This document shows positions 2-52,574 of a stretch of DNA of 64,000 nucleotides, piece by piece. Position numbers and translations under genes: made by a program. Position 1 is the first letter of the stretch. Each line of letters opens with the position of its first letter. Source of the stretch: Rickettsiales bacterium (GTDB lineage Bacteria > Pseudomonadota > Alphaproteobacteria > Rickettsiales > UBA1997); NCBI GenBank assembly GCA_947503755.1, contig CANNFC010000001.1, positions 8,808-72,807 on the forward strand, written 5' to 3'. Below the pieces are notes generated by a model. The model did not search any database. It worked only from the letters and a program-made list of their open reading frames with translations, and had not been told where the DNA came from.

Positions 2-3000
2 ATTCGTTTTCATGTTATTATAAGAACAAATCATCAAAATAAAATTGAAACAGATAGTGTTGTTATTGAAAAAGAAATTACCAAGCTTACCAAAGTGTGG
101 AGCGATGAGCTACTTGAGTCTATCAAATCAAACTTTACTGATGAAAAAAGAATATTCTTGCATAGTCGTTATAAAAATGCTTTTTCGGTGAGTTATAGAA
201 ATCGTTTTGATGCCAGAATTGCAACTCTTGATATTGAGAAAATAGAAGAAAGTTTGCAAAAAAAAATGCCTATTTTTAATTTGCATAAATTAGCAGACGA
301 TCTTTGCGAAGATGTTTCTGAGTTAAAAATCTACTCACCGTCTCAAGAAATCAGCCTATCTAAAATTATGCCGATACTTGAAAGTTTTGGCTTTAATGTT
401 ATTCAAGAGCATACTTATATTGCCAATATCGAAGAAGAAAGCAAAAACCGTTCTATTCAAAAAGTTTGGATACATTATTTTAATTTAAATTTAAGCAAAA
501 ATAAAACTCAATTTAATGAAATTATTAAGCTTAATTTTGAAAAAATTATCGAAAGAATATGGTATAAAACCTCTGCAGTTTCTGGTTTGAATAAATTAGC
601 TATTTTATGTTTATTTTCTTATAAACAAGTATATTTGCTTTCTGCTTATACTAAATATTTAGTGCAAATAGGCTTAAAAAACGATATTATTGATGCTTTA
701 ATTTGCTACCCAGAATTATGTAAAAATTTAATTGCTTTATTTGAAGCTAAATTTGATCCCAGCCTAAAAAATCAGCATCGTCGTTCTATTTTGCAAGATA
801 TTGAGCATTCTATTCAATCTAATCTTGATTTGGTGCAAGATGCTTATTGTGATTTAATAATAAAAAAACTACACAACCTAATTAAGGCAACACTTCGTAC
901 CAACTATTATCAAAAAGATGCTGATGGCAATTTTAAAAATTATCTTTCTTTTAAATTTAATTCCAAAGCAATAGATGGTCTGCCATTGCCTTTGCCGTTC
1001 GCCGAAATTTTTGTTTATTCAACCAAAACCGAGGCTATTCACCTTCGTTTTGGTAAAGTGGCAAGGGGCGGTTTGAGATGGTCAGATAGATTGGATGATT
1101 TTAGAACCGAAGTTCTTGGTTTGGTAAAAGCGCAACAAACTAAAAATGCTGTAATCGTGCCGGTTGGCTCAAAGGGTGGTTTTGTGGTAAAAACAGATGT
1201 TAGTTTAATGACCAGAGGCGAAATTCAGCAAGAAGGAATAAATTGTTATCAAACATTTTTGTTTGGTTTGCTTGATATTACCGATAATGTTGTCAACGAT
1301 AAAATAGTTCATCCTGATAATGCAGTGCTTTATGATGAAGTAGATCCATATTTAGTGGTGGCTGCCGATAAAGGAACGGCAACTTTTTCAGATATTGCCA
1401 ATAATATTTCAAAACAATACAATTTTTGGCTAGGAGATGCCTTTGCTTCTGGCGGTTCTGCTGGTTATGATCATAAAAAAATGGGCATTACTGCAAAAGG
1501 TGCTTGGATTTCGGTGATGAGACATTTTCGTGAAATGGGTTTTGATACTCAAACACAAGATTTTACTTGTGTCGGCATTGGCGATTTAGCGGGCGATGTT
1601 TTTGGCAATGGTATGTTGCTTTCTCCTCATATCAAGTTGGTTGCTGCTTTTAATCATTTGCATATTTTTCTTGATCCTAATCCAGATACTAACCAATCTT
1701 TTTTAGAAAGAAAAAGAATGTTTGAGCTACTAAGATCTACTTGGCAAGATTATAACCAGCAACTTATTTCAAAAGGTGGCGGTATTTTTCTTAGATCAAG
1801 CAAATCTATCGATATTTCTTTAGAAATGCAAAAAGTTTTAGGCATTACTCAAGATCAGCTTGCTCCTAATCAATTAATTTCTGCTATTTTAAAAGCTCCT
1901 GTCGATTTATTATGGAACGGTGGCATCGGCACTTATGTTAAGGCTACAAGTGAAAGCCATCAAGATGTAGGCGATAAAAGTAATGATAGTTTAAGAATAA
2001 ATGGTTCTGATCTTCGTTGCAAGGTGGTGGGTGAGGGTGGTAATTTGGGTTTTACTCAAAAAGGCAGAATAGAATATGCTCAAAATGGCGGTAAAATCAA
2101 TACCGATGCTATCGATAACTCTGCTGGTGTAGATTGCTCAGATCACGAAGTTAATATTAAAATAGCTTTAATTTCTGCCATGAGAAGCAAAAAAATCACT
2201 TTGCAAGAAAGAAATTTATTGTTAGAGCAAATGACTAACCAAGTTGCTGATTTGGTTTTGCAAGATAATCGTTTGCAAACCCAAGCAATTTCTATTGTTC
2301 ATCATCAAGGTTATTTGTTGTTGCCAGAGCAGAGTAAGTTTTTAGATCGATTAGAAGATAATCAAATATTAAATCGCCAACTCGAATTTTTACCTTCCAA
2401 AAGCGAAATTGAAAAATTGCAACATAATAAACAAGCATTAACTAGGCCACAACTTTCGGTGATGCTAGCCTATGCTAAAATGGAAATTTACAATGCTTTA
2501 TTGCAATCCGATTTAACTTCTGATCGTTATTTTGAAAAAGATCTTTTCTCTTATTTCCCAACTATTTTACAGCAGAAATTAGCCTATGAAATCAATAATC
2601 ATCAACTCAGAAAAGAAATTATTGCCACTCAAATAACTAATTTTGTTATCAATCGTGTTGGTATTACCTTTGTTGGTAGAATTTGTCAAGATAGCGGTTT
2701 TAATATTTCTGAGGTGGTAAAATGCTTGATTATTGCCTACGATTCTTTTCGATTAAACGAATCTTGGTTAAAAATAGAAGAATTAGACGGTAAAATAGCT
2801 TTAGATCTGCAAATGTCAATGTTTTTAAGTGCTAATAAACTACTAGAAAGATCAATAATGTGGCTACTGCATAATCAAATTAAAGGCGATATTTCTTCTG
2901 CGGTGTTGAGATTTCAAACTATCGCCGATGAAATATCTACTGATTTGCCTTTGGTTTTAGCTCAAGCTTCTAAAGAATCTTTCCAAAGAAAGATAGATCA

Positions 3001-3463
3001 TTATTGTTTGCATCAAATAGAGCATAATTTAGCAACTAAAATTGCCTCAATGGATCCTATTGCTTCTTCTTATGATATTGCCGAAATTACCTCTCTTTCT
3101 AAACACGACATTAGAACTATTGCCACCATTTATTTTGCCGTTGGTAATAGACTTTCTTTAAAGTGGTTAAGAAATAAAGTGGCAGAATTATCGCTCACTA
3201 ATTATTGGCAAAAATTAGCTAGCAAAACTTTGTTAGAAGATTTATATTTCTATCAAAGACAAATTACAAAAATAATCACAGAATTAAGTGAAGAAAATAA
3301 TGACTATAATAATGTCGATTATTTTATAACAAATTGGGAAAAACATTATCAGTTTTTAATTACCCGATTCGATAAATTTATTGCCGAAATAAAAAATGAA
3401 AGCAACCCAGATTTAGCAATGTTTATTGTGGCACTTAACCTCATTAAACCTCTTTGCAATTAA
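2..3463 (+). CDS. gdhB: NAD-specific glutamate dehydrogenase of the large (~1600 aa) bacterial GDH family; the 5' end lies upstream of the window
   Basis: The frame is open from base 2 with no stop before the listed start at 95, so the window edge truncates the gene. The translation carries the family hallmarks RFGKVARGGLRWSDR, VPVGSKGGFV and GEGGNLGFTQ...DNSAGV. Confidence 0.85.
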   Translation: MRFHVIIRTNHQNKIETDSVVIEKEITKLTKVWSDELLESIKSNFTDEKRIFLHSRYKNAFSVSYRNRFDARIATLDIEKIEESLQKKMPIFNLHKLADDLCEDVSELKIYSPSQEISLSKIMPILESFGFNVIQEHTYIANIEEESKNRSIQKVWIHYFNLNLSKNKTQFNEIIKLNFEKIIERIWYKTSAVSGLNKLAILCLFSYKQVYLLSAYTKYLVQIGLKNDIIDALICYPELCKNLIALFEAKFDPSLKNQHRRSILQDIEHSIQSNLDLVQDAYCDLIIKKLHNLIKATLRTNYYQKDADGNFKNYLSFKFNSKAIDGLPLPLPFAEIFVYSTKTEAIHLRFGKVARGGLRWSDRLDDFRTEVLGLVKAQQTKNAVIVPVGSKGGFVVKTDVSLMTRGEIQQEGINCYQTFLFGLLDITDNVVNDKIVHPDNAVLYDEVDPYLVVAADKGTATFSDIANNISKQYNFWLGDAFASGGSAGYDHKKMGITAKGAWISVMRHFREMGFDTQTQDFTCVGIGDLAGDVFGNGMLLSPHIKLVAAFNHLHIFLDPNPDTNQSFLERKRMFELLRSTWQDYNQQLISKGGGIFLRSSKSIDISLEMQKVLGITQDQLAPNQLISAILKAPVDLLWNGGIGTYVKATSESHQDVGDKSNDSLRINGSDLRCKVVGEGGNLGFTQKGRIEYAQNGGKINTDAIDNSAGVDCSDHEVNIKIALISAMRSKKITLQERNLLLEQMTNQVADLVLQDNRLQTQAISIVHHQGYLLLPEQSKFLDRLEDNQILNRQLEFLPSKSEIEKLQHNKQALTRPQLSVMLAYAKMEIYNALLQSDLTSDRYFEKDLFSYFPTILQQKLAYEINNHQLRKEIIATQITNFVINRVGITFVGRICQDSGFNISEVVKCLIIAYDSFRLNESWLKIEELDGKIALDLQMSMFLSANKLLERSIMWLLHNQIKGDISSAVLRFQTIADEISTDLPLVLAQASKESFQRKIDHYCLHQIEHNLATKIASMDPIASSYDIAEITSLSKHDIRTIATIYFAVGNRLSLKWLRNKVAELSLTNYWQKLASKTLLEDLYFYQRQITKIITELSEENNDYNNVDYFITNWEKHYQFLITRFDKFIAEIKNESNPDLAMFIVALNLIKPLCN

Positions 3464-3476
3464 AAATTTCTAATTT

Positions 3477-3516
3477 CAAAAAAAGCTAAGGGGGCAAAAA
3501 CCCCGTTCGCTTTTTT
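3477..3516. terminator. Putative bidirectional rho-independent terminator between convergent gdh and the kinase gene
   Basis: An A8 run is followed by an imperfect 10-bp stem (gctaaggggg / ccccgttcgc, 2 mismatches), a caaaaa loop and a T6 run. It lies exactly between two convergent stop codons. Confidence 0.5.
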
Positions 3517-4882
3517 AAATCGGCAAGGTAACAATAACTTTTAGCCCGCCTAGTGTTTTTGATTGGTCGAGAGTTATTTCTCCGCCGTGCGAACCTATGG
3601 CATCTTTGGTAATTGCCAAACCGAGTCCTGAGCCAATTTTAAAAGAGGTGCTGTCGAGATTTCTGGCTTGATTTAGCCTGATAAATGGTTTAAAAACATT
3701 TTCTCTTTCTGTTTTCGGAATGCCAGGGCCGTTATCTTCTATGGTAATAACAATATTTTTTTGCTGGCAAATCGCTGTAAAATCAACTTGTGTAGCATAA
3801 TGAAAAGCATTGTCAATAAGATTTTTTAAAGCTCTATTTAGAGCAGAAGGTTTGATGGTTATGTTGAGATTTTTAGAAATTTGACAGTTAAAATGAATGT
3901 TTTTCTGCATTTTTTGATAATAAATAAAACAATTTTCTTCTAAAAAACTGGCAATATTGCTATTAGTGCTTTTTTCTTTATCGTTGCCTTTGGCGAAATC
4001 TAAATATTCACCAATAAGATTTTCCATATCAGAAATATCAATATTTAGATTTTTTGTTTCTTCACTTTCTGGCATCAAAGCAAGTTGTAGCTTCATTCTG
4101 GTAAGAGGAGTGCGAAGATCGTGCGAGACTGAAGAAAGCATAAAGGTTCGTTGATTTATTTGTCTAGTGATTCGTTCTTTCATTTTAATAAAAGAAATTG
4201 TGAGAGAGCGAATCTCTTGCGAGCCAAGAATTTTCGGGTTGGCAACGGCAATGCCTCGGCCAAATTTTTCGGCCCAAGAACTTAAATTGCCAATCAACTT
4301 AATTTGGTTACGAAAAAAAATAACCGATAGCAAAGAAGTTAAACAAACCGTAATAAACAGCCAAAAAGTAAAAACATAACCACTGGAGCTGGTGATTTTC
4401 TTGATTGGCACCTCAAAAGTAAGTAGACCTTGTTTTAGCTGAATACTTACATTGATGGTTTCTTTTTTTTCTTGGTCGGTAAAAATTTGATAAGGTGCAA
4501 GATGATGATTTTCTAATTCTATTTTAAAGCGATTATAAGGATCAAGCACTGGCTTAAAGTATTGATAAAGTTTATTTTGTTGCCAATTGCTATCGGCAAT
4601 TTTAATAGTGTTAAGTTTTTTGCGATATTTAAAGCTATATTTTAAGCCAGTGCTTTCGGTTAAATCTTTTAATAAATTTTCATAACCGGGTTTATTCGCA
4701 GAATTTTTGACAAAAACCATTTCAACAACCACACTTCTTGCCATATGTTTGCTGATAACATCGAGATGACCATAATAAAATACATAAATAGAAACCAACT
4801 GCACTATCAAAGCCGAAAGCAGAATAATCAACAAAGATCTGCCATATAAAGAATGTGGAATAAATTTTTTTAGTTTTTGCAT
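3515..4882 (-). CDS. Two-component sensor histidine kinase, EnvZ/PhoR-like, with 2 TM segments, HAMP, HisKA and HATPase regions
   Basis: H-box SHDLRTPLTRM, N-box LKNLIDNAFHYA and G-boxes DNGPGI / GSGLGLAI are present, with two hydrophobic segments in the N-terminal half. No response regulator gene is adjacent. Confidence 0.85.
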   Translation of the reverse strand: MQKLKKFIPHSLYGRSLLIILLSALIVQLVSIYVFYYGHLDVISKHMARSVVVEMVFVKNSANKPGYENLLKDLTESTGLKYSFKYRKKLNTIKIADSNWQQNKLYQYFKPVLDPYNRFKIELENHHLAPYQIFTDQEKKETINVSIQLKQGLLTFEVPIKKITSSSGYVFTFWLFITVCLTSLLSVIFFRNQIKLIGNLSSWAEKFGRGIAVANPKILGSQEIRSLTISFIKMKERITRQINQRTFMLSSVSHDLRTPLTRMKLQLALMPESEETKNLNIDISDMENLIGEYLDFAKGNDKEKSTNSNIASFLEENCFIYYQKMQKNIHFNCQISKNLNITIKPSALNRALKNLIDNAFHYATQVDFTAICQQKNIVITIEDNGPGIPKTERENVFKPFIRLNQARNLDSTSFKIGSGLGLAITKDAIGSHGGEITLDQSKTLGGLKVIVTLPI

Positions 4883-4890
4883 TTAAAAAT
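4862..4890. repeat. Left copy of the direct repeat bounding the Type III R-M cassette; it contains the kinase ATG and its first 5 codons
   Basis: aaatttttttagtttttgcatttaaaaat matches 9670-9696 with an identical 18-nt core. The only differences are a T7/T5 run length and one A/T change. Confidence 0.8.
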
Positions 4891-4920
4891 GAGAAATATT
4901 GTTAGTTAAAATGAATTGTC

Positions 4921-5165
4921 GGTTTTTTTCTGTGCAGTTCGAGATTAGATCGAGTGCGATCTGCATCGCTCCCCCTGTGCAGTTCTCGATCTAAATCGCC
5001 CCCTCTTTTACGGGAGGGCAAGAGCTACGAAGTAGCTCTGGGAGGGGTAAATACTATTAACACAACTCGAATTTGAGTTTGTGATGTAGGTCTTCTGACC
5101 CCCCCACCGAAATTGCTATGCAATTTCGACCCCCTCCCGTAAAGCGGGAGGGTGATTAGATCGAG
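4921..5165. repeat. Palindromic repeat cluster A: fragments plus one full R2-type element at 4985-5165
   Basis: Termini are ctcgatctaaatcgccccctc... and ...ccctcccgtaaagcgggagggtgattagatcgag. The internal sequence matches 11098-11255 in the opposite orientation. There is a GC-rich 8-bp stem-loop (ccctcccg taaag cgggaggg). Confidence 0.85.
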
Positions 5166-5242
5166 CACAATCTGAATTGCTTCCCATTTTTTTTGAGTGG
5201 GAGAAGAAGATAGATATAAAATTGATTTTAATGTCATAGCCA

Positions 5243-7162
5243 CTACACAATAACAACTCTCTTTTGCTCAAAATGTTGGTATAAATTGTGGATTATCTCA
5301 ACATTTAAGCAGGCATCTTGTGCAAAAATTTGGCATTCTTTTAAGTGATCAGAATATAAAACAATTTCTGCAAGAGTTTGGTTGTTCATTTGCTCTTCGC
5401 CCAAAATAATTAGGGCTTGGCGGTTATTGCCTTTAAGGTAGGTTATGCCTTTACCTAAATTATGCAAATCACGATATTGATAATTTAAGCCATAGCCATA
5501 GCTACATGCAATTTCGGCAAAAATTTCTTCTTTTGTGGCAATGCTTTTATTCATCAATTTACGATCGATTGCCGACTCGGTGAGTTCTAAAACCTTAAAA
5601 CCATTATCAACCGATTTATATTTTTCGCCAGCACGTCGAATTCTCTCAATGGTAATATTTGAAATAACAGGCTCTAGATTGTTATTTTTGCAAAATTTAA
5701 AAGCCTCTTTTTTGTTATCAATTTTTTCGGGCAGTTGCACTAAAATAAACCTTCGCCCGCCGACTTCCGCCTCTTTATCTGCCAAAAGCCCATCTTTTGC
5801 TTGTTTATCAATTTCTTCTTGATTGAGTTCCATAACCGCTTGCCCTGTGGTGCCACTACCTGCAAAAAAATCAAGAATGAGATCGTTTGGTGCGGTAGAG
5901 ATTTGGAGAAGGTGTTTTATGAGTGAGACAGGTTTGGGGTTGGTAAATAAGTCCTTATTTGTATTAAATAACTTTCGCAACTCAAATGTCGCACTAGTAG
6001 AATCACCAACAAAATCCAAAATATTAGATATTGATATCTCGTTGTTCGATTTAGAGTATTGAGGAATGCCTTTTGAATTAAAAAAAATCTCATTATACTG
6101 CTGACCTTTTTTATCAAACGCCTCTTTCCCTGAGAGTAAAGTGTTAATGATGTTAGGTGAAGACCATTCCGCACTTAACTCACAATCATTTTTCAATAAT
6201 CCATTTTCAAAAATCATTTCTTTTGAGATAATTTCAATTGGTTCAGATTGTCCACCTATAGTTCCAGAAAAAATTTCATTATTTATACCTTCAATTCTAA
6301 TACCGCTAGGAAAAACAATGTTAAATTTTCTGTGCTTTACCTTTGTAATCCTTGAAGACACTTGCTTTACTTCATCAAGTTCTAGCTTGAATTTTGCAAT
6401 ATCTTTATTTTTAGAATACACAAAAATATATTCTTTTAAATCCTTAATTGCTCCATAATTAATTGCTGAATTTTGCACATGAATAAAACACCCCACAAAC
6501 TCCTCCTCGCCAAATATCTCATTCATAATTTGCCTTAAGTGGTGAACTTCGTTATCATCGATGCTTACAAAAATAACACCATCTTCTCGCAACAGCTCCC
6601 TTGCCAAAACAAGCCTTGGATACATAAACGAAAGCCAATTTGAGTGCTTTCTCCCTGTGTTTTTTTCTTTTGCATTTTGCCCCGAAATATCTTGCCCATC
6701 TTCAATTTGCCCGCTTTCAAGCAAATAATCAAGCTCGCTTGTGGCATAATTATCGGGGTAGATAAACTCGTGTTGAGTGTTATATGGAGGGTCAATATAA
6801 ATACACTTAACCTTGTTTTTATAAGATGGCACCAACAGTTTTAAAACTTGCAAATTATCGCCTTCGATAATTAAATTTTGTGTTGTTTTAAAATTTTTAC
6901 TGCGTTCTTCGTCAAATTTTAATGCAAGTTTTATCTCGCTTTGTTTAAATGACAAACCTTTTGCTTTTTGCTTGCCTGCCCAGCTAAAACAAAACGGCTC
7001 TTGCTTTTCGGTTGTATAGCCAGTGACAAAATTTTCAAGCTCGGCTTTAATTAAATTTCCGTCTTTATCAAATAAATTTGGCAATAGTTTTTTTAACTCT
7101 GCCATTTTGTCATGGTGCAGACTTTGCAAACCTTCGTTAAATTTGATAGTTTTTTCATTCAT
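5243..7162 (-). CDS. mod: Type III restriction-modification methyltransferase (Mod), beta-class N6-adenine MTase
   Basis: Motif IV YIDPPYNT near residue 124 precedes motif I DFFAGSGTTGQA near residue 433, which is the beta-class order with a variable region between them. It starts 15 nt downstream of the res gene on the same strand. Confidence 0.85.
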   Translation of the reverse strand: MNEKTIKFNEGLQSLHHDKMAELKKLLPNLFDKDGNLIKAELENFVTGYTTEKQEPFCFSWAGKQKAKGLSFKQSEIKLALKFDEERSKNFKTTQNLIIEGDNLQVLKLLVPSYKNKVKCIYIDPPYNTQHEFIYPDNYATSELDYLLESGQIEDGQDISGQNAKEKNTGRKHSNWLSFMYPRLVLARELLREDGVIFVSIDDNEVHHLRQIMNEIFGEEEFVGCFIHVQNSAINYGAIKDLKEYIFVYSKNKDIAKFKLELDEVKQVSSRITKVKHRKFNIVFPSGIRIEGINNEIFSGTIGGQSEPIEIISKEMIFENGLLKNDCELSAEWSSPNIINTLLSGKEAFDKKGQQYNEIFFNSKGIPQYSKSNNEISISNILDFVGDSTSATFELRKLFNTNKDLFTNPKPVSLIKHLLQISTAPNDLILDFFAGSGTTGQAVMELNQEEIDKQAKDGLLADKEAEVGGRRFILVQLPEKIDNKKEAFKFCKNNNLEPVISNITIERIRRAGEKYKSVDNGFKVLELTESAIDRKLMNKSIATKEEIFAEIACSYGYGLNYQYRDLHNLGKGITYLKGNNRQALIILGEEQMNNQTLAEIVLYSDHLKECQIFAQDACLNVEIIHNLYQHFEQKRVVIV

Positions 7163-7177
7163 AAATAAAGTAATAAA

Positions 7178-9592
7178 TTATTGCCAATTACTTGCGTCAA
7201 TTGTGGCGAACGAATCTTTTGCAAGCCTTAAAAAATCTGCTTGATCGCTGATATTTTTAGTTTCAACATCAAAGCCTAATGCTCTAAAATGCTCAATTGC
7301 ACATTTGATTTTAAATTCTTCGCTTTTCTGCACAAGCTCGTGACTTGCTCTATCTTTTACCTCAAAAATCATATACAGCTTGTCGTTTTCGCCAACAACA
7401 ACGGCAAAGTCAGGGTAATATTTGCCAATTGGGGTATTGATATGAAATTTTTCATCTCCACCTTTTGGCAACTTCATAAACAACTTAATTTTATCAAGTT
7501 TATCTGCGGTTTTTATAAAGTTTTGTTCTGGTGCCGAATCGTATTCTACCAAATCGTATAAAGATTTTTCTGCTGTTTGTGTGCTTGCTGTTGTTGTCTT
7601 TTCATCTTCATAAAAAGCTTTATCGGGCCATTTATTATTGGTTAATTGATATTCAACTCTGGCAATTGTGAGAATGGCATTTTGAATTTGTTCTTTTATG
7701 GCAAAAACCGCTCTTGATAGCCACATTTGTTGATTTTTTTTAATTGCATTTTCATTGCAACAATCAAGAATTTTATTAACTTCCCATTTTGTAAGCCAAG
7801 TTTCTTGGCAAATTTTTTGAATTATTTCTGGTTTGTTATAATCAGATTCAAGTTTTGCACCAACATCAGCATCAGCAAGACTTGCATTGTAAGCATCGGT
7901 AAAGACTGCTTTTTCTATTAAAACTCGCTTTTCTTGTATATCTTTTTCAAAAGATTTTATTGCGGTTATAATATTTTCGTAAAGCTTTTCTTTTTCATTA
8001 AAATGCACAAGATATTTTGACTTTCTTGAAATTTTTTGCCATAAAGGCCTCGCTTCAGCAATTTTTTCTTTGCGAATTTTCATTATTTTTGTTGCTTTTA
8101 ACCTTTTTTCTGCATCATCTGGAACCGCTATATCGTATCCATCTTTTTTAGCATCGTTTTGATAATTTTTGACAAAATCATCCCATTTTTCGCCACCAAT
8201 TACAGTTAATAAATTTATTATTTCATCTTTTGGAGTGCTAAAATTATCTTTTATTCTGTCGCCATTCTGATTTACCGCTAAACGAAGCCCGCGACCAATA
8301 AACTGACGTCTTGAAATATCGCTACCGATATCTCTTAAAAAGCAAATTTGAAAAACATTAGGGCAATCCCAGCCAACACCAAGTGCCGAATGAGTAAATA
8401 TGTATTCTACTGGTTCGTTTAGAGACAATAATTTTTCTTTATCTTTCATTATCAAATCAAACTTTTCTTCGTCATTTTCAATGGCTTTAGTTGTTGATTT
8501 ATCGCTAAAATAAGCTCCATATTTTTGTTGCGGATTATTGTGATATTTTGTTAATTCTTCCTCAAAAATTGTGCGAATTTTTTCAAAATTTGGCACATAA
8601 TCGATAAAAAACAAAGATAAAACTTTGATTTCTTGCTGGTTTAATTTTTTTTTCTTCTGCTCATGAATTGCAATTGTTCTTTTAATTTGCTCAAGTCGAA
8701 GCTCAAAATCATGATTTTCGTTAAAATTGATCTGGCTAAGTTTATTGCCATTATCAAACAAAATATCTTCTGGCAGAACTCTTTCAATTGTCAAATTGCC
8801 GATTTTATCTCCATCTTTTACCTTCTTTTTTTTATCATTTTCTAAAATTGTCGCAACCCATTTTTTACCTTTTTGTTGTGATTTTATAAATTTAATATTG
8901 AAACCAAAGCCGTCTTTAATGTAGACTCCGTAATATTCAACTTGTTTAACAAGTTTTTTTTCATAAGCATCGCTTGGAGTTAATTTATAAATAGGTTCAT
9001 ATTTTAAATTTTTATGAGTTGCAGAATATTTTAAAATAAACTTTGGTTTTAAACTGGCAATAGCTTGTTTTGATTTTTCGGCATCCATCATTTGTGGCTC
9101 ATCTATTATAATGATCGGCTTGGAATTGGCAATTTTATCAATATATTTTTCGCTTTCAAAAAGCCCAACCGAAAGGCCATCTCTGTTTTGTTTTAATATA
9201 TTTGTATCTTTATTAAACCCATGAATTCCTATAATCAAAATTTGCAAAGTCTCTTTATCGCAAAAGTTTTCAATATTTCTTAATTTTTTAGAATTATAAG
9301 AATATACATCGTATGCAATGCTTGGATATTTTTCTTGCAAGTGTTCTTGTAAGCTTTCGAAAGACTTTTTGATTCCTTGGCGAACTGCAATGCTTGGTGC
9401 AACAATAATAAATTTTGAAAGTTTTTGCTGTCTATAAAGTTCAAAAATTGTTCTTATGTAAGTATAAGTTTTGCCAGTTCCAGTTTCCATCTCAATTGAA
9501 AACTCCTCTTGACCTTGATTTTCAAAAATAGCATTAGTTGTTGCATTTATTGCATCAACTTGATAATCTAATTCTGTAAATTTTAGCTTCAT
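7178..9592 (-). CDS. res: Type III restriction enzyme Res subunit (SF2 helicase-like ATPase plus C-terminal PD-(D/E)XK nuclease)
   Basis: Walker A METGTGKTYTY, motif II IIIDEPQ and a SAT-like YSATH motif are present. The C-terminal nuclease motif is YYPDFAVV...MIFEVKD. It is adjacent to mod. Confidence 0.85.
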   Translation of the reverse strand: MKLKFTELDYQVDAINATTNAIFENQGQEEFSIEMETGTGKTYTYIRTIFELYRQQKLSKFIIVAPSIAVRQGIKKSFESLQEHLQEKYPSIAYDVYSYNSKKLRNIENFCDKETLQILIIGIHGFNKDTNILKQNRDGLSVGLFESEKYIDKIANSKPIIIIDEPQMMDAEKSKQAIASLKPKFILKYSATHKNLKYEPIYKLTPSDAYEKKLVKQVEYYGVYIKDGFGFNIKFIKSQQKGKKWVATILENDKKKKVKDGDKIGNLTIERVLPEDILFDNGNKLSQINFNENHDFELRLEQIKRTIAIHEQKKKKLNQQEIKVLSLFFIDYVPNFEKIRTIFEEELTKYHNNPQQKYGAYFSDKSTTKAIENDEEKFDLIMKDKEKLLSLNEPVEYIFTHSALGVGWDCPNVFQICFLRDIGSDISRRQFIGRGLRLAVNQNGDRIKDNFSTPKDEIINLLTVIGGEKWDDFVKNYQNDAKKDGYDIAVPDDAEKRLKATKIMKIRKEKIAEARPLWQKISRKSKYLVHFNEKEKLYENIITAIKSFEKDIQEKRVLIEKAVFTDAYNASLADADVGAKLESDYNKPEIIQKICQETWLTKWEVNKILDCCNENAIKKNQQMWLSRAVFAIKEQIQNAILTIARVEYQLTNNKWPDKAFYEDEKTTTASTQTAEKSLYDLVEYDSAPEQNFIKTADKLDKIKLFMKLPKGGDEKFHINTPIGKYYPDFAVVVGENDKLYMIFEVKDRASHELVQKSEEFKIKCAIEHFRALGFDVETKNISDQADFLRLAKDSFATIDASNWQ

Positions 9593-9669
9593 ATTCTAAA
9601 TAATTAATTCTTTACACTTTTTATCTTTAAATATAAAATTTTTTATAATAATATCACTATCAATAAAAC

Positions 9670-9696
9670 AAATTTTTAGTTTTTGCATTTTAAAAT
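9670..9696. repeat. Right copy of the direct repeat bounding the Type III R-M cassette
   Basis: aaatttttagtttttgcattttaaaat matches 4862-4890. On the minus strand it starts a 30-codon mini-ORF (9688->9596, MQKLKICF...) that ends 3 nt before the res ATG. Confidence 0.8.
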
Positions 9697-9745
9697 AAAG
9701 AAGATTATAATTTAGATATTTGGCAAAATACAAGCAAAAGTTTTT

Positions 9746-10516
9746 ATGAATAACAAAATATCAGCAATTAACATTAACTTGTTTTATAATAAAAAACAAA
9801 CACTTTTTGATATTAATCTTACTTGTAAAGAAAAAACAGTAACCTCTTTAATTGGGCCTTCTGGCTGTGGTAAATCTTCTTTTTTAAGATGCATCAACCG
9901 AATGAACGATACTATCGAAAACTGCGAAATTACAGGCTCTATTTTGCTTGACGGTCAAGATATTTATAGCAAAAATTACGGCAAAGATATCGATTTGGTT
10001 CGGCTTCGTGCCTTAGTTGGTATGGTTTTTCAAAAGCCCAACCCTTTTCCTAAATCTATTTTTGATAATGTTGCTTATGGTCCCAAAATTCATGGTCTGT
10101 ATAGCAATAAAAGAGAATTAGCCGAAATAGTCGAATCTAGCCTCACAAAGGCAGGTTTGTGGCAAGAAGTTAAAGATCGTTTGCACGAAAATGCCTCGGG
10201 TCTTTCTGGCGGTCAACAACAAAGGCTTTGTATTGCACGATCTATTGCTATTTCTCCGCAAGTGATTTTGATGGACGAGCCTTGCTCGGCACTTGATCCT
10301 ATTGCCACAGCTAAAATTGAAGAATTAATAGATAAATTAAAAATTAATTTTACTATCGTGATTGTTACTCATTCTATGCAACAAGCTGCGAGAGTTTCTG
10401 ATTATACTGCTTTTTTTCATTTGGGTAAAATTATCGAATACAACACTACAAATCATATTTTTACTAACCCTAGCAATCAACAAACTCAAGACTACATCAC
10501 AGGTAGATTTGGTTAA
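9746..10516 (+). CDS. pstB: Phosphate ABC transporter ATP-binding protein PstB
   Basis: Walker [10 protein letters not shown], signature [13 protein letters not shown] and Walker [12 protein letters not shown] are present. The PstB-typical C-terminal [10 protein letters not shown]-like tail reads [10 protein letters not shown]. Confidence 0.9.
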
Positions 10517-10920: not shown

Positions 10921-11305
10921 AATCTAAACTTCGATCTAAATTCCCCTTTTTTAGAAGGGGTGGCGACCGAAGGTCGACGGGGTAGTGTCGGCAACACACG
11001 GTAGGATCTTTTCGAAAAGACATCGGCGATCGGGCTCCCAACACTACCTTGGTCTTTTTGCATAAGTTATACCATTTACACAAATAAATATCGCATTTCG
11101 ATCTAAATCACCCTACCCATTGCAAAGCAATTTCGGGGAGGGGTAAGAAAAGCACATCACAACATCGATTTTGCATAATGATTTTTTTTAACCACCCACG
11201 AAGCTAACAAGCTAGCTCCTGCTCCCCCGTAAAGCGGGGGAGCGATTAGATCGAGGTAATATTATCGCCCCAGAATAATGCGGTATTTATTAGTGAAAAT
11301 GGTAT
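10921..11305. repeat. Palindromic repeat cluster B: a truncated R1 element (about 10931-11066) interrupted by an R2 element with outer inverted termini (11069-11305)
   Basis: The R1 left end is tcgatctaaattccccttttttagaaggggtgg. The R2 core at 11098-11255 matches 4985-5165 inverted. The outer termini ataccatttacacaaataaata / tatttattagtgaaaatggtat match those of the 41866-42159 element. Confidence 0.85.
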
Positions 11306-41865: not shown

Positions 41866-42159
41866 CGATATAATACCATTTACATAAATAAATACCACAC
41901 TTCGATCTAAATTCCCCTTCTTGTAGAAGGGGTGGCACGAAGTGCCGGGGTAGTGTCGGCAACACACGGTAGAATCTTCTTCGAAAACACATCGGCGATC
42001 GTCTTCCAACACTACCTTGGTCTTTTTTTGCTGTCGCAAAAAAATCCACCCCTTCTAAAAAAGGGGAATTTTGCACCGCATTCGATCTAAATTTCTCTTC
42101 CAGGGGATGGGGAATTTAGATCGAAGTGTGGTATTTATTTATGTAAATGGTATTATATC
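41866..42159. mobile_element. MITE-like non-autonomous element (294 bp) with perfect 51-bp terminal inverted repeats; repeat cluster E
   Basis: 41866-41916 is the exact reverse complement of 42109-42159 (gatataataccatttacataaataaataccacacttcgatctaaattcccc). The interior is a full R1 module plus a mini-palindrome. It encodes no protein. Confidence 0.85.
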
Positions 42160-52278: not shown

Positions 52279-52564
52279 ATAACATTTCCACTAATTAAAA
52301 CCACACTTCTATCTAAATTCCCCATCCCGTGGAAGGGAAATTTAGATAGAAGTGTGGTGCAAAATTCCCCTTTTTTAGAAAAGGGGTGGCGACCGAAGGT
52401 CGACGGGGTAGTGTCGGCAAGCCACGGTAGGAATTTGACTTGAATTAGCATTTTTCCTTGTTTCACAACACTGCCTTGGTCTTTTTTGCTATCGCAAAAA
52501 AGACACCCCTTCTAAAAAAGGGGAATTTAGATCGAAGTGTGATTTTAATTAGTGGAAATGGTAT
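52279..52564. repeat. Palindromic repeat cluster F: a MITE-like element with 45-bp terminal inverted repeats (42/45 match)
   Basis: The left terminus ataacatttccactaattaaaaccacacttctatctaaattcccc matches the reverse complement of 52520-52564. It contains a mini-palindrome (52301-52357) and an R1 module. Confidence 0.85.
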
Positions 52565-52574
52565 AAAAATTCTA

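What the first reader, a model, noticed from the sequence alone, without database searches (positions are those of the whole stretch)
4862..9696. Type III R-M cassette is delimited by a 27-29 bp direct repeat that duplicates the start of the sensor-kinase gene
4862-4890 (aaatttttttagtttttgcatttaaaaat) and 9670-9696 (aaatttttagtttttgcattttaaaat) are the same sequence. They differ only by a T7/T5 run length and one A/T change, and the 18-nt core tttttagtttttgcattt is identical. The left copy holds the kinase ATG (4882) and its first five codons (MQKLK). The right copy lies 4.8 kb away, just outside res. There it opens a 30-codon mini-ORF (9688->9596, MQKLKICFIDS...) that ends 3 nt before the res ATG. 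Everything between the copies (repeat cluster A, mod, res) therefore looks like one insertion with target duplication. Deleting it in silico leaves the kinase divergent from pstB, which is a Pho-regulon-like layout. It also suggests res may now be driven by a copy of the kinase 5' region.
Basis: seen in the sequence. Interest (0 to 1): 0.68.

Follow-up and report, generated by a model that had tools for sequence, protein, structure and literature searches.

The report
Swappable restriction-gene slot at kinase start
The repeat is real: a restriction-modification gene pair sits between two copies of a sensor-kinase gene's first codons. Close relatives carry an empty site or other cargo at the same junction, a strain-variable insertion pattern already described for restriction-modification genes.

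Summary
The 18-mer TTTTTAGTTTTTGCATTT occurs only at 4867-4884 and 9673-9690, inside the reported 29/27-nt repeat.

The predicted empty site exists. Conspecific metagenome contigs with 97-99.9% identical flanks (L064/L099, L091, L095) have pstB and an intact kinase back to back. They are 57 nt apart and carry one copy of the repeat.

The interpretation needs three corrections:
- The pstB-side copy is the kinase's original start. Its ATG lies at the same short distance from pstB (57 nt) as the kinase start in the conspecific empty sites and in several of the 46 relatives. Its ATGCAA is the reverse complement of the -35-like TTGCAT of a pstB promoter-like site.
- The duplication was probably not made by this Type III cassette. 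The same junction (ATGCAAAAACTAAAAA-TTTG) fronts two Type IIG-like cargos in the same species and thiC-hda-tRNA-Glu in a sister species. The window allele also shares a unique 58-nt kinase-side frame with one Type IIG allele.
- The kinase is EnvZ-like, not demonstrably PhoR.

No integrase or transposase lies in any allele. The best fit is the known "insertion with long target duplication" plus allelic substitution of R-M systems (Furuta et al. 2010). This is a new member of a known kind.

The parts
3515..4882 (-). EnvZ-like sensor histidine kinase (455 aa), displaced 4.8 kb from its ancestral position next to pstB
   Evidence: Pfam HisKA + HATPase_c. NCBIfam best hit is EnvZ at 199 bits, below cut-off. 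Orthologue in 63 loci.
4862..4890 (.). Left, kinase-side copy of the direct repeat. It holds the working kinase ATG (4882) and codons MQKLKK. A7 run (T7 on the + strand).
   Evidence: Window 4867-4889 aligns to the single copy L064:5916-5938.
4883..4940 (-). 58-nt kinase-side frame (GAACTGCACAGAAAAAAACCGACAATTCATTTTAACTAACAATATTTCTCATTTTTAA). Unique in the window. Shared with the Type IIG 'B2' allele. Its last ~26 nt look like an old, diverged copy of the end of the pstB-kinase spacer.
   Evidence: unique; found only upstream of the kinase in alleles A and B2. (similarity to native kinase upstream sequence).
4941..5215 (.). Cluster of nested G+C-rich palindromic elements (termini TCGATCTAAAT / ATTTAGATCGA), 48% GC. 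Part of the insert. Its length varies between strains.
   Evidence: (RNA fold z = -6.5). Absent from empty sites.
5243..7162 (-). Type III mod (639 aa). The central target-recognition region differs between strains (alleles of 615, 639 and 659 aa).
   Evidence: Pfam N6_N4_Mtase. PADLOC MTase_III 1.6e-126..
7178..9592 (-). Type III res (804 aa), upstream of mod (res->mod order)
   Evidence: Pfam ResIII + RE_endonuc. PADLOC REase_III 1e-150. NCBIfam type III endonuclease 1.7e-75.
9596..9688 (-). 30-codon mini-ORF that begins with the fossil kinase start (MQKLK...) and stops 3 nt before the res ATG. Not conserved in the other alleles (6 or 11 codons).
9663..9696 (.). Right, pstB-side copy of the repeat (9670-9696; fossil of the original kinase start; A5 run) plus the conserved junction TTTGTTTTAT (9672-9663 read on the - strand)
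   Evidence: The same junction is present in L065, L085 and L088, and as far as TTTG in L058 and L087.
9683..9711 (+). pstB promoter-like site TTGCAT-17 nt-TATAAT. The -35-like hexamer is the reverse complement of the kinase's first two codons.
   Evidence: 10 of 12 match; the tool's register is TTTGCA-18-TATAAT, starting at 9682. By my own reading of the spacer printed, the L003 clade has TTGCAT-16-TATAAT. The spacer is nearly invariant in L058 although genes there are ~86% identical.
9746..10516 (+). pstB, the ancestral divergent neighbour of the kinase
   Evidence: NCBIfam PstB 2.5e-118, above cut-off. Synteny in 46 loci.

Best explanation
The repeat marks a strain-variable insertion slot at the first codons of an EnvZ-like kinase gene in a freshwater Rickettsiales population.

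Ancestral layout. The kinase and pstB were back-to-back neighbours, 57 nt apart in this species. The kinase's ATGCAA doubled as the -35-like hexamer of a pstB promoter-like site.

Origin of the repeat. At some point DNA was inserted just after codon 5-6, with duplication of the kinase start. At least 17-23 nt were duplicated, probably about 45-50 nt. The pstB-side copy stayed as a fossil, which keeps the pstB promoter-like site intact. The other copy keeps the displaced kinase gene whole.

Later history. The content of the slot has since turned over. In the window it holds a Type III res-mod operon, a cluster of palindromic elements and a 58-nt frame. Other strains of the same species hold Type IIG-like genes or nothing. 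A sister species holds thiC-hda-tRNA-Glu.

Inferred mechanism. Cargo exchange most likely goes through homologous recombination in the conserved flanks and frames. Empty alleles are either ancestral or arise by precise deletion between the two repeat copies. No recombinase is encoded in the slot.

Shown versus inferred. Shown: the presence/absence polymorphism, the identical junctions, the shared frames and the fossil's position. Inferred: how the duplication first formed, the direction of each gain or loss, and that res-mod is read from the kinase's native promoter.
For: - Empty sites with one repeat copy. L064: window 4867-4889 and 9673-9695 both align to L064:5916-5938, with flanks ~97% identical over 16 kb. 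L091 and L095 also have a 57-nt gap. L091's flanks are 99.83-99.88% identical to cargo-bearing L087.
- Fossil position. Its ATG is 57 nt from the pstB ATG. The kinase start is 57 nt from pstB in the conspecific empty sites and 48-58 nt in several of the 46 relatives (overall range 48-248 nt), and the kinases there start MQ(R/K)LKKFIP.
- Same junction, different cargo. ATGCAAAAACTAAAAA-TTTG is found in the window, L065/L085/L088 (Type IIG-like + TaqI_C + DUF559), L087/L089/L093 (Type IIG-like + 502-aa ORF) and sister-species L058 (thiC, hda-like, tRNA-Glu).
- Shared frames. The window and B2 share TTTGTTTTAT and the unique 58-nt kinase-side frame. The B1 leader is 48/50 identical to L058.
- pstB promoter-like site overlapping the fossil ATG (the L003-clade equivalent is my reading of the spacer).
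- No integrase or transposase among the called genes of any allele.
- Assemblies break exactly at the repeat, as expected for a polymorphic locus.
- The pattern matches published cases. Repeats flanking R-M insertions often span a translation start or stop, and allelic substitution between R-M types is known (PMC2853133).
Against: - All comparators are metagenome contigs or MAGs, so strain mixing or misassembly at a repeat is conceivable. Against that, four assemblies from different samples give the empty site.
- The direction of change is unresolved. Empty could be ancestral everywhere, with repeated site-specific gains.
- The clear repeat (23-29 nt) is shorter than the >30 bp that Furuta et al. 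used to define 'long target duplication'. The extension to ~50 nt is only 67% identical.
- The sister-species cargo is housekeeping genes, which is odd for a mobile slot and implies extra rearrangements.
- Promoter assignments are consensus matches only.
Confidence: 0.72

Rival explanations
1. One reading: the Type III res-mod cassette, with the palindromic cluster, inserted once and recently into an empty pstB/kinase site. That event itself produced the 27-29-nt target duplication.
For: - Empty sites with a single copy exist in genomes 97% identical.
- All Type III-bearing contigs have identical junctions.
- Related res->mod cassettes (67-81% identical Res) occur in unrelated contexts, so the cassette family is mobile.
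Against: - The same pstB-side junction, including the shared A5 run and TTTG(TTTTAT), fronts unrelated cargo in the same species and in a sister species.
- The kinase-side 58-nt frame is shared with the Type IIG B2 allele.
- The part of the repeat upstream of the ATG is ~33% diverged while the core is perfect. A recent duplication would not give that.
Confidence: 0.14
2. Site-specific integration. The repeat is the core of an attachment site (attL/attR). A tyrosine or serine recombinase supplied in trans, or lost from the element, inserts and excises circular cassettes at the kinase start.
For: - A 17-29-nt repeat is a typical att-core length.
- Junctions are nucleotide-precise and reused by several cargos.
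- Empty and occupied states occur on nearly identical backgrounds.
- A related res-mod cassette sits between two phage-type integrase genes in L102.
Against: - No integrase or recombinase gene lies in any of the four cargo versions or within ~10 kb on either side.
- One cargo consists of core genes (thiC, hda-like, tRNA-Glu).
- No inverted core-type or arm-type sites were seen.
Confidence: 0.1
3. The two copies are unrelated in origin: a chance match in A+T-rich DNA, or a shared regulatory or translation-start motif.
For: The DNA is A+T-rich, and short similar strings such as TTAGTTGTTGCATTTA at 9534 exist.
Against: - The exact 18-mer occurs only twice in 64 kb.
- Both copies collapse onto one sequence in empty-site relatives.
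- The fossil lies at the ancestral kinase-start position.
Confidence: 0.01

Closest known systems
R-M 'insertion with long target duplication' (Nobusato et al. 2000, Gene 259:99; Furuta, Abe & Kobayashi 2010, NAR 38:2428, PMC2853133)
   Same: - R and M genes without any mobility gene, in an insert under 20 kb.
- Flanked by direct repeats that are a single copy in an empty-site relative.
- The repeat spans a translation start, so the target gene stays intact.
- Type III examples are known.
   Different: - The clear repeat is 23-29 nt, below their >30-bp working threshold.
- The repeat here frames a multi-allelic slot and seems older than the present cargo.
- The host is an uncultured freshwater Rickettsiales lineage. 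It is not among the taxa listed in the passages of that survey read here.
Allelic, cassette-like substitution of R-M systems at a fixed chromosomal locus (Sibley & Raleigh 2004, E. coli hsd/ICR; Furuta et al. 2010, Type III replaced by Type I + IV)
   Same: The same two flanking core genes hold a Type III system, Type IIG-like systems or nothing in conspecific strains. Conserved frames could serve as recombination arms.
   Different: - Here the slot lies inside the 5' end of a gene and is kept harmless by a duplicated start.
- One end is also a promoter-like element of the neighbouring gene.
Integrase-borne genomic islands that restore the end of their target gene (attL/attR core repeats)
   Same: Direct repeats of att-core length at the end of a gene. 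Precise empty and occupied states.
   Different: No integrase in or near any allele. The cargo is only 3.8-5.4 kb. One cargo consists of housekeeping genes.
Classical Type III R-M operons (EcoP1I, EcoP15I)
   Same: A Mod with N6_N4 methylase motifs and a variable central domain. A Res with an SF2 helicase and a C-terminal endonuclease domain.
   Different: - Gene order is res->mod instead of mod->res.
- Res is short (804 aa).
- There is no promoter of its own visible by the consensus scan.

Membership tests
R-M insertion with long target duplication (Furuta et al. 2010 criteria) | Both an R and an M gene homologue lie in the inserted segment | tested here: met
   res 7178-9592 and mod 5243-7162. 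Pfam, NCBIfam and PADLOC hits.
R-M insertion with long target duplication (Furuta et al. 2010 criteria) | Insert shorter than 20 kb, with no mobility genes | tested here: met
   4806 nt between the two ATGs. The only sizeable ORFs are mod, res and a 72-aa ORF with no Pfam hit.
R-M insertion with long target duplication (Furuta et al. 2010 criteria) | The flanking direct repeats align to a single copy at an empty site in a related genome | tested here: met
   L064:5916-5938 is matched by both window copies. L091 and L095 are also empty.
R-M insertion with long target duplication (Furuta et al. 2010 criteria) | Target duplication longer than 30 bp | tested here: inconclusive
   The clear repeat is 27/29 nt (23 nt against the empty site). 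A further 24 nt are 67% identical, p about 0.0006-0.002.
Allelic substitution of R-M systems at one locus | Conspecific genomes carry different R-M types between the same flanking genes | tested here: met
   Type III (window, L066-L071, L083). Type IIG-like B1 (L087, L089, L093). B2 (L088, L090, L065, L085). Flanks are 97-99.9% identical.
Integrase-mediated island (att-site integration) | A site-specific recombinase gene in or beside the element | tested here: not met
   None among the called genes of any allele or within ~10 kb.
Integrase-mediated island (att-site integration) | Excised circular form with a single att core | not testable with these tools
   Needs outward-facing PCR or read-level analysis of metagenomes.
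Transposon / insertion sequence with target-site duplication | Transposase gene, terminal inverted repeats and a short (2-14 bp) duplication | tested here: not met
   No transposase. No inverted repeats at the insert ends among the reported pairs. The duplication is 23-29 nt.
Type III restriction-modification system | Mod methyltransferase plus Res helicase-nuclease encoded side by side | tested here: met
   PADLOC MTase_III 1.6e-126 and REase_III 1e-150. The order is res->mod, unlike the classical mod->res.
Pho regulon pair (PhoR next to pst genes) | The kinase is a PhoR orthologue | tested here: not met
   The NCBIfam PhoR model scores 86 bits against a cut-off of 334. The best hit is EnvZ at 199 bits, against a cut-off of 415.

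The most novel reading that the evidence does not exclude
The repeat-framed slot may work as a reversible, recombinase-free docking site. R-M cassettes would loop out by recombination between the two 17-29-nt copies, leaving a perfect empty site. They would re-enter relatives by a single crossover at the same short homology. Once docked, they would be read from the kinase's native promoter. If so, this natural population would show the 'release and re-invasion' steps of the R-M life cycle that Kobayashi's group proposed but never observed.
Probability: 0.15. Interest if true: 0.6.

Novelty: new member of a known kind. Interest (0 to 1): 0.38.

Why it matters
- It is a clean, population-level example of how defence genes come and go in a small, A+T-rich genome without any dedicated mobility enzyme. 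At one pair of core genes there are an empty site, one Type III cargo and two Type IIG-like cargos in one species, plus a different cargo in a sister species.
- It shows how a duplicated gene start lets an insertion sit inside overlapping divergent control regions without harming either neighbour.
- In practice, the locus breaks metagenome assemblies, and it could serve as a strain marker.
- It offers a tractable place to look for excised R-M circles.
- It does not reveal a new kind of element.

Tried and rejected
- **RNA genes:** Rfam (gathering threshold) and the tRNA scan of the whole window found nothing relevant.
- **Type III cleavage distance:** I considered a link between the repeat length and the 25-27-bp cleavage distance of Type III enzymes (a figure from my own knowledge). 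I rejected it because the junction is shared with non-Type III cargos and the repeat length differs between alleles.
- **Mosaic recombination in L066:** The apparent 97% versus 99.5% split came from indels in the palindromic cluster and the mod variable region. The flanks are 99-100% identical throughout.
- **B1 kinase-side junction:** Its similarity to the spacer of the L003 clade rests on only 5 nt (CACAA) in my own by-eye comparison of the sequences printed, so I dropped it.
- **Spacer haplotypes:** Three SNPs in a T-run pair empty alleles with occupied ones. That is too few sites, in hypermutable sequence, to polarise gain against loss.
- **Type IIG-like ORF of L065:** A protein search found no exact entry. 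The contig context was instead recovered through the kinase cluster members.
- **thiC, hda and tRNA-Glu:** These are not in the window or near the kinase in the other relatives. Their origin in the sister species stays open.
- **Consensus scans:** They found no sigma-70-like promoter for the displaced kinase and no intrinsic terminator in the palindromic cluster.


Full report
**1. The observation**

Their 18-nt core, TTTTTAGTTTTTGCATTT, is exact at 4867-4884 and 9673-9690. It has no other match in the window, even allowing two mismatches; 0.2 matches are expected by chance.

- The left copy carries the ATG (4882) and the first codons, MQKLKK, of a 455-aa histidine kinase on the minus strand.
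- The right copy opens a 30-codon ORF whose stop lies 3 nt before the res ATG.
- Between the copies lie a G+C-rich palindrome cluster, a Type III mod (639 aa) and a Type III res (804 aa). The typing rests on Pfam, NCBIfam and PADLOC.
- The gene order is res then mod, the reverse of the classical order.
- Similarity between the copies continues more weakly for 24 nt upstream of the ATG (16/24). In the fixed register only 0.06% of all window 24-mers, or 0.18% of A+T-rich ones, do as well.

**2. Organism and ancestral layout**

The kinase has orthologues in 59 contigs of uncultured freshwater Rickettsiales or alphaproteobacterial MAGs.

- In 46 of them, with 50-62% kinase identity, pstB and the kinase are divergent neighbours. 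The spacer is usually 48-85 nt, and the kinase starts MQ(R/K)LKKFIP.
- In the window, the ATG of the right copy lies 57 nt from the pstB ATG. This is the ancestral kinase-start position.
- The pstB-side copy is therefore a fossil of the original start. The working kinase gene has been moved 4806 nt away.

**3. The empty site exists**

A metagenome scan with the fossil sequence returned L064, part of a 114-kb contig that is about 97% identical to the window over 16 kb.

- In L064, pstB and an intact kinase are 57 nt apart. L064:5916-5938 is matched by both window copies.
- Two more empty sites turned up through variants of the kinase protein: L091 and L095.
- L091's flanks are 99.83-99.88% identical to those of a cargo-bearing contig, L087. 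Gain or loss is therefore very recent and nucleotide-precise.
- Several assemblies break exactly at the repeat, as expected for a polymorphic locus.

**4. The slot is older than the Type III cargo**

The same pstB-side junction, ATGCAAAAACTAAAAA-TTTG, recurs with different cargo. In every case the fossil has an A5 run where the kinase copy has A7. It precedes the following:

| Allele | Contigs | Cargo | ATG-to-ATG distance |
|---|---|---|---|
| A | window and about nine other contigs | Type III res-mod | 4806 nt in the window; 4636 nt in L066; 4866 nt in L083 |
| B1 | L087, L089, L093 | 722-aa N6_Mtase/Eco57I-type gene plus a 502-aa ORF | 3792 nt |
| B2 | L088, L090, L065, L085 | the same pair at 85% identity, plus TaqI_C and DUF559 genes | 5370 nt |
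| sister species (L058) | L058 shows the fossil junction; L001 and L002 also carry orf210 (hda-like) and tRNA-Glu, and L001 thiC, upstream of the kinase (kinase ~86% identical) | thiC, an Hda-like gene and tRNA-Glu(UUC) | about 3.1 kb |

- Alleles A and B2 also share the next 10 nt (TTTGTTTTAT) and a 58-nt kinase-side frame. That frame is unique in the window and occurs only upstream of the kinase in these two alleles.
- The first 50 nt behind the fossil ATG in B1 are 48/50 identical to L058.
- These shared derived features argue for one origin of the duplication, or very few, followed by replacement of the cargo.
- No integrase or transposase appears in any allele or within about 10 kb.

**5. 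Why the fossil is kept**

- On the plus strand, TTGCAT (9683-9688), 17 nt and TATAAT (9706-9711) form the best promoter-like site in front of pstB.
- The -35-like hexamer is the reverse complement of the kinase's ATGCAA.
- By my reading of the spacer printed, the L003 clade has the same arrangement (TTGCAT-16-TATAAT).
- The 57-nt spacer plus fossil is almost invariant even in L058, although the coding DNA there is only about 86% identical.
- By inference, an insertion here is tolerated only if the kinase start is duplicated. One copy then stays with pstB, and one stays with the kinase.
- Both R-M cargos point in the kinase direction, so they may be read from the kinase's native promoter. The mini-ORF is not conserved between alleles (30, 11 or 6 codons), so it is a by-product. 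In the window its stop, 3 nt before the res ATG, could still couple translation.
- None of this was tested.

**6. Mechanism and rivals**

The best-supported account has four steps:
- An old insertion duplicated the kinase start.
- Cargo was later exchanged through homologous recombination in the flanks and frames.
- Empty alleles are either ancestral or made by deletion between the repeat copies.
- The direction of each change is not resolved.

The rivals are:
- A single recent Type III insertion that made the duplication. The shared junctions and frames weaken this.
- Integrase-mediated att-site integration. The repeat length and the precision fit, but no recombinase was found. A related res-mod cassette does sit between two integrase genes elsewhere, in L102.
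- Chance similarity, which is refuted.

Res homologues at 67-81% identity, always in res->mod order, occur in unrelated contexts. The cassette family itself is therefore mobile.

**7. Comparison with known systems**

- The pattern is the one the Kobayashi group called "insertion with long target duplication". R-M genes with no mobility gene are flanked by direct repeats that are single-copy at an empty site. The repeats often span a translation start or stop, so the target gene survives. The same survey reported allelic substitution between R-M types (PMC2853133).
- Differences here: the clear repeat (23-29 nt) is below their 30-bp threshold, the slot holds several alleles and seems older than its present cargo, and one end doubles as a promoter-like element of the neighbouring gene.
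- The "Pho-regulon-like" label is not supported. The kinase is EnvZ-like by score and fails the PhoR model. The gene after pstB is TatB-like.

**8. Verdict**

The empty site is real, but the Type III cassette is a tenant of the slot, not its maker.
- This is a new member of a known kind.
- Interest is moderate. It is a tidy natural system for studying R-M turnover in a reduced genome, but it would not surprise a specialist.

Noticed in passing
window 5500-6750 (mod central region); L066, L068, L069, L083: The target-recognition part of Type III mod is swapped between otherwise 99-100% identical strains. Mod alleles are 615, 639 and 659 aa, and identity drops to 57-59% over 6001-6500. This implies different methylation specificities within one population.
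   Followed up: partly
window 4941-5215, 10930-11260, and about 41874-42152 and 52280-52566; L064:13333-13444: A dispersed family of nested G+C-rich palindromic elements (termini TCGATCTAAAT...ATTTAGATCGA) lies in intergenic DNA of this A+T-rich genome. It is reminiscent of Rickettsia palindromic or REP-like elements. The copy cluster beside the kinase varies in length between strains, and its RNA fold has z = -6.5.
   Followed up: partly
loci L011, L014-L016, L018-L020, L027, L037, L040, L042, L043, L053 (about 15-20 nt upstream of the kinase ATG); window 4882-4900 (-): A conserved 20-mer, AATATTTTTYCATTTCTAAA, lies upstream of the kinase in one subclade of relatives. The window has a 19-nt variant abutting the displaced kinase ATG, one of only two hits in the window at edit distance <=3. 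It may be a kinase promoter or operator element.
   Followed up: partly
L058:5551-8110; L001:1316-3871; L002:917-1644: In the sister species the slot holds housekeeping genes: thiC, an Hda-like gene and tRNA-Glu(UUC). These lie behind the fossil and a 50-nt remnant of a Type IIG leader. This implies a translocation of core genes into a former R-M slot. Where these genes lie in the window species is unknown.
   Followed up: partly
L023:7574-7774: The 187-nt pstB-kinase spacer contains a second kinase-start-like string (ATGCGACTAAAAAAATTTAGACC..., MRLKKFRPSSL) about 30 codons before KRKFIPRSL. This may be an independent small duplication or insertion at the same gene start in a distant relative.
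   Followed up: no
L015:12812-16837: A relative in the 60%-identity clade carries a different Type III pair (43% identical, in mod->res order) about 1.4 kb downstream of the same kinase gene.
   Followed up: no
L102:4536-12284: A res-mod cassette whose Res is 67% identical to the window's sits with a Fic gene between two phage-type integrase genes. It looks like an integrative island version of the same cassette family.
   Followed up: no
window 95-3463 and upstream; L066, L074: The GDH ORF at the window start is the C-terminal 1122 aa of a 1599-aa NAD-glutamate dehydrogenase that runs off the window. Its adjacency to the kinase is specific to this species. No GDH was found near the kinase in the other 60 or so relatives.
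   Followed up: no
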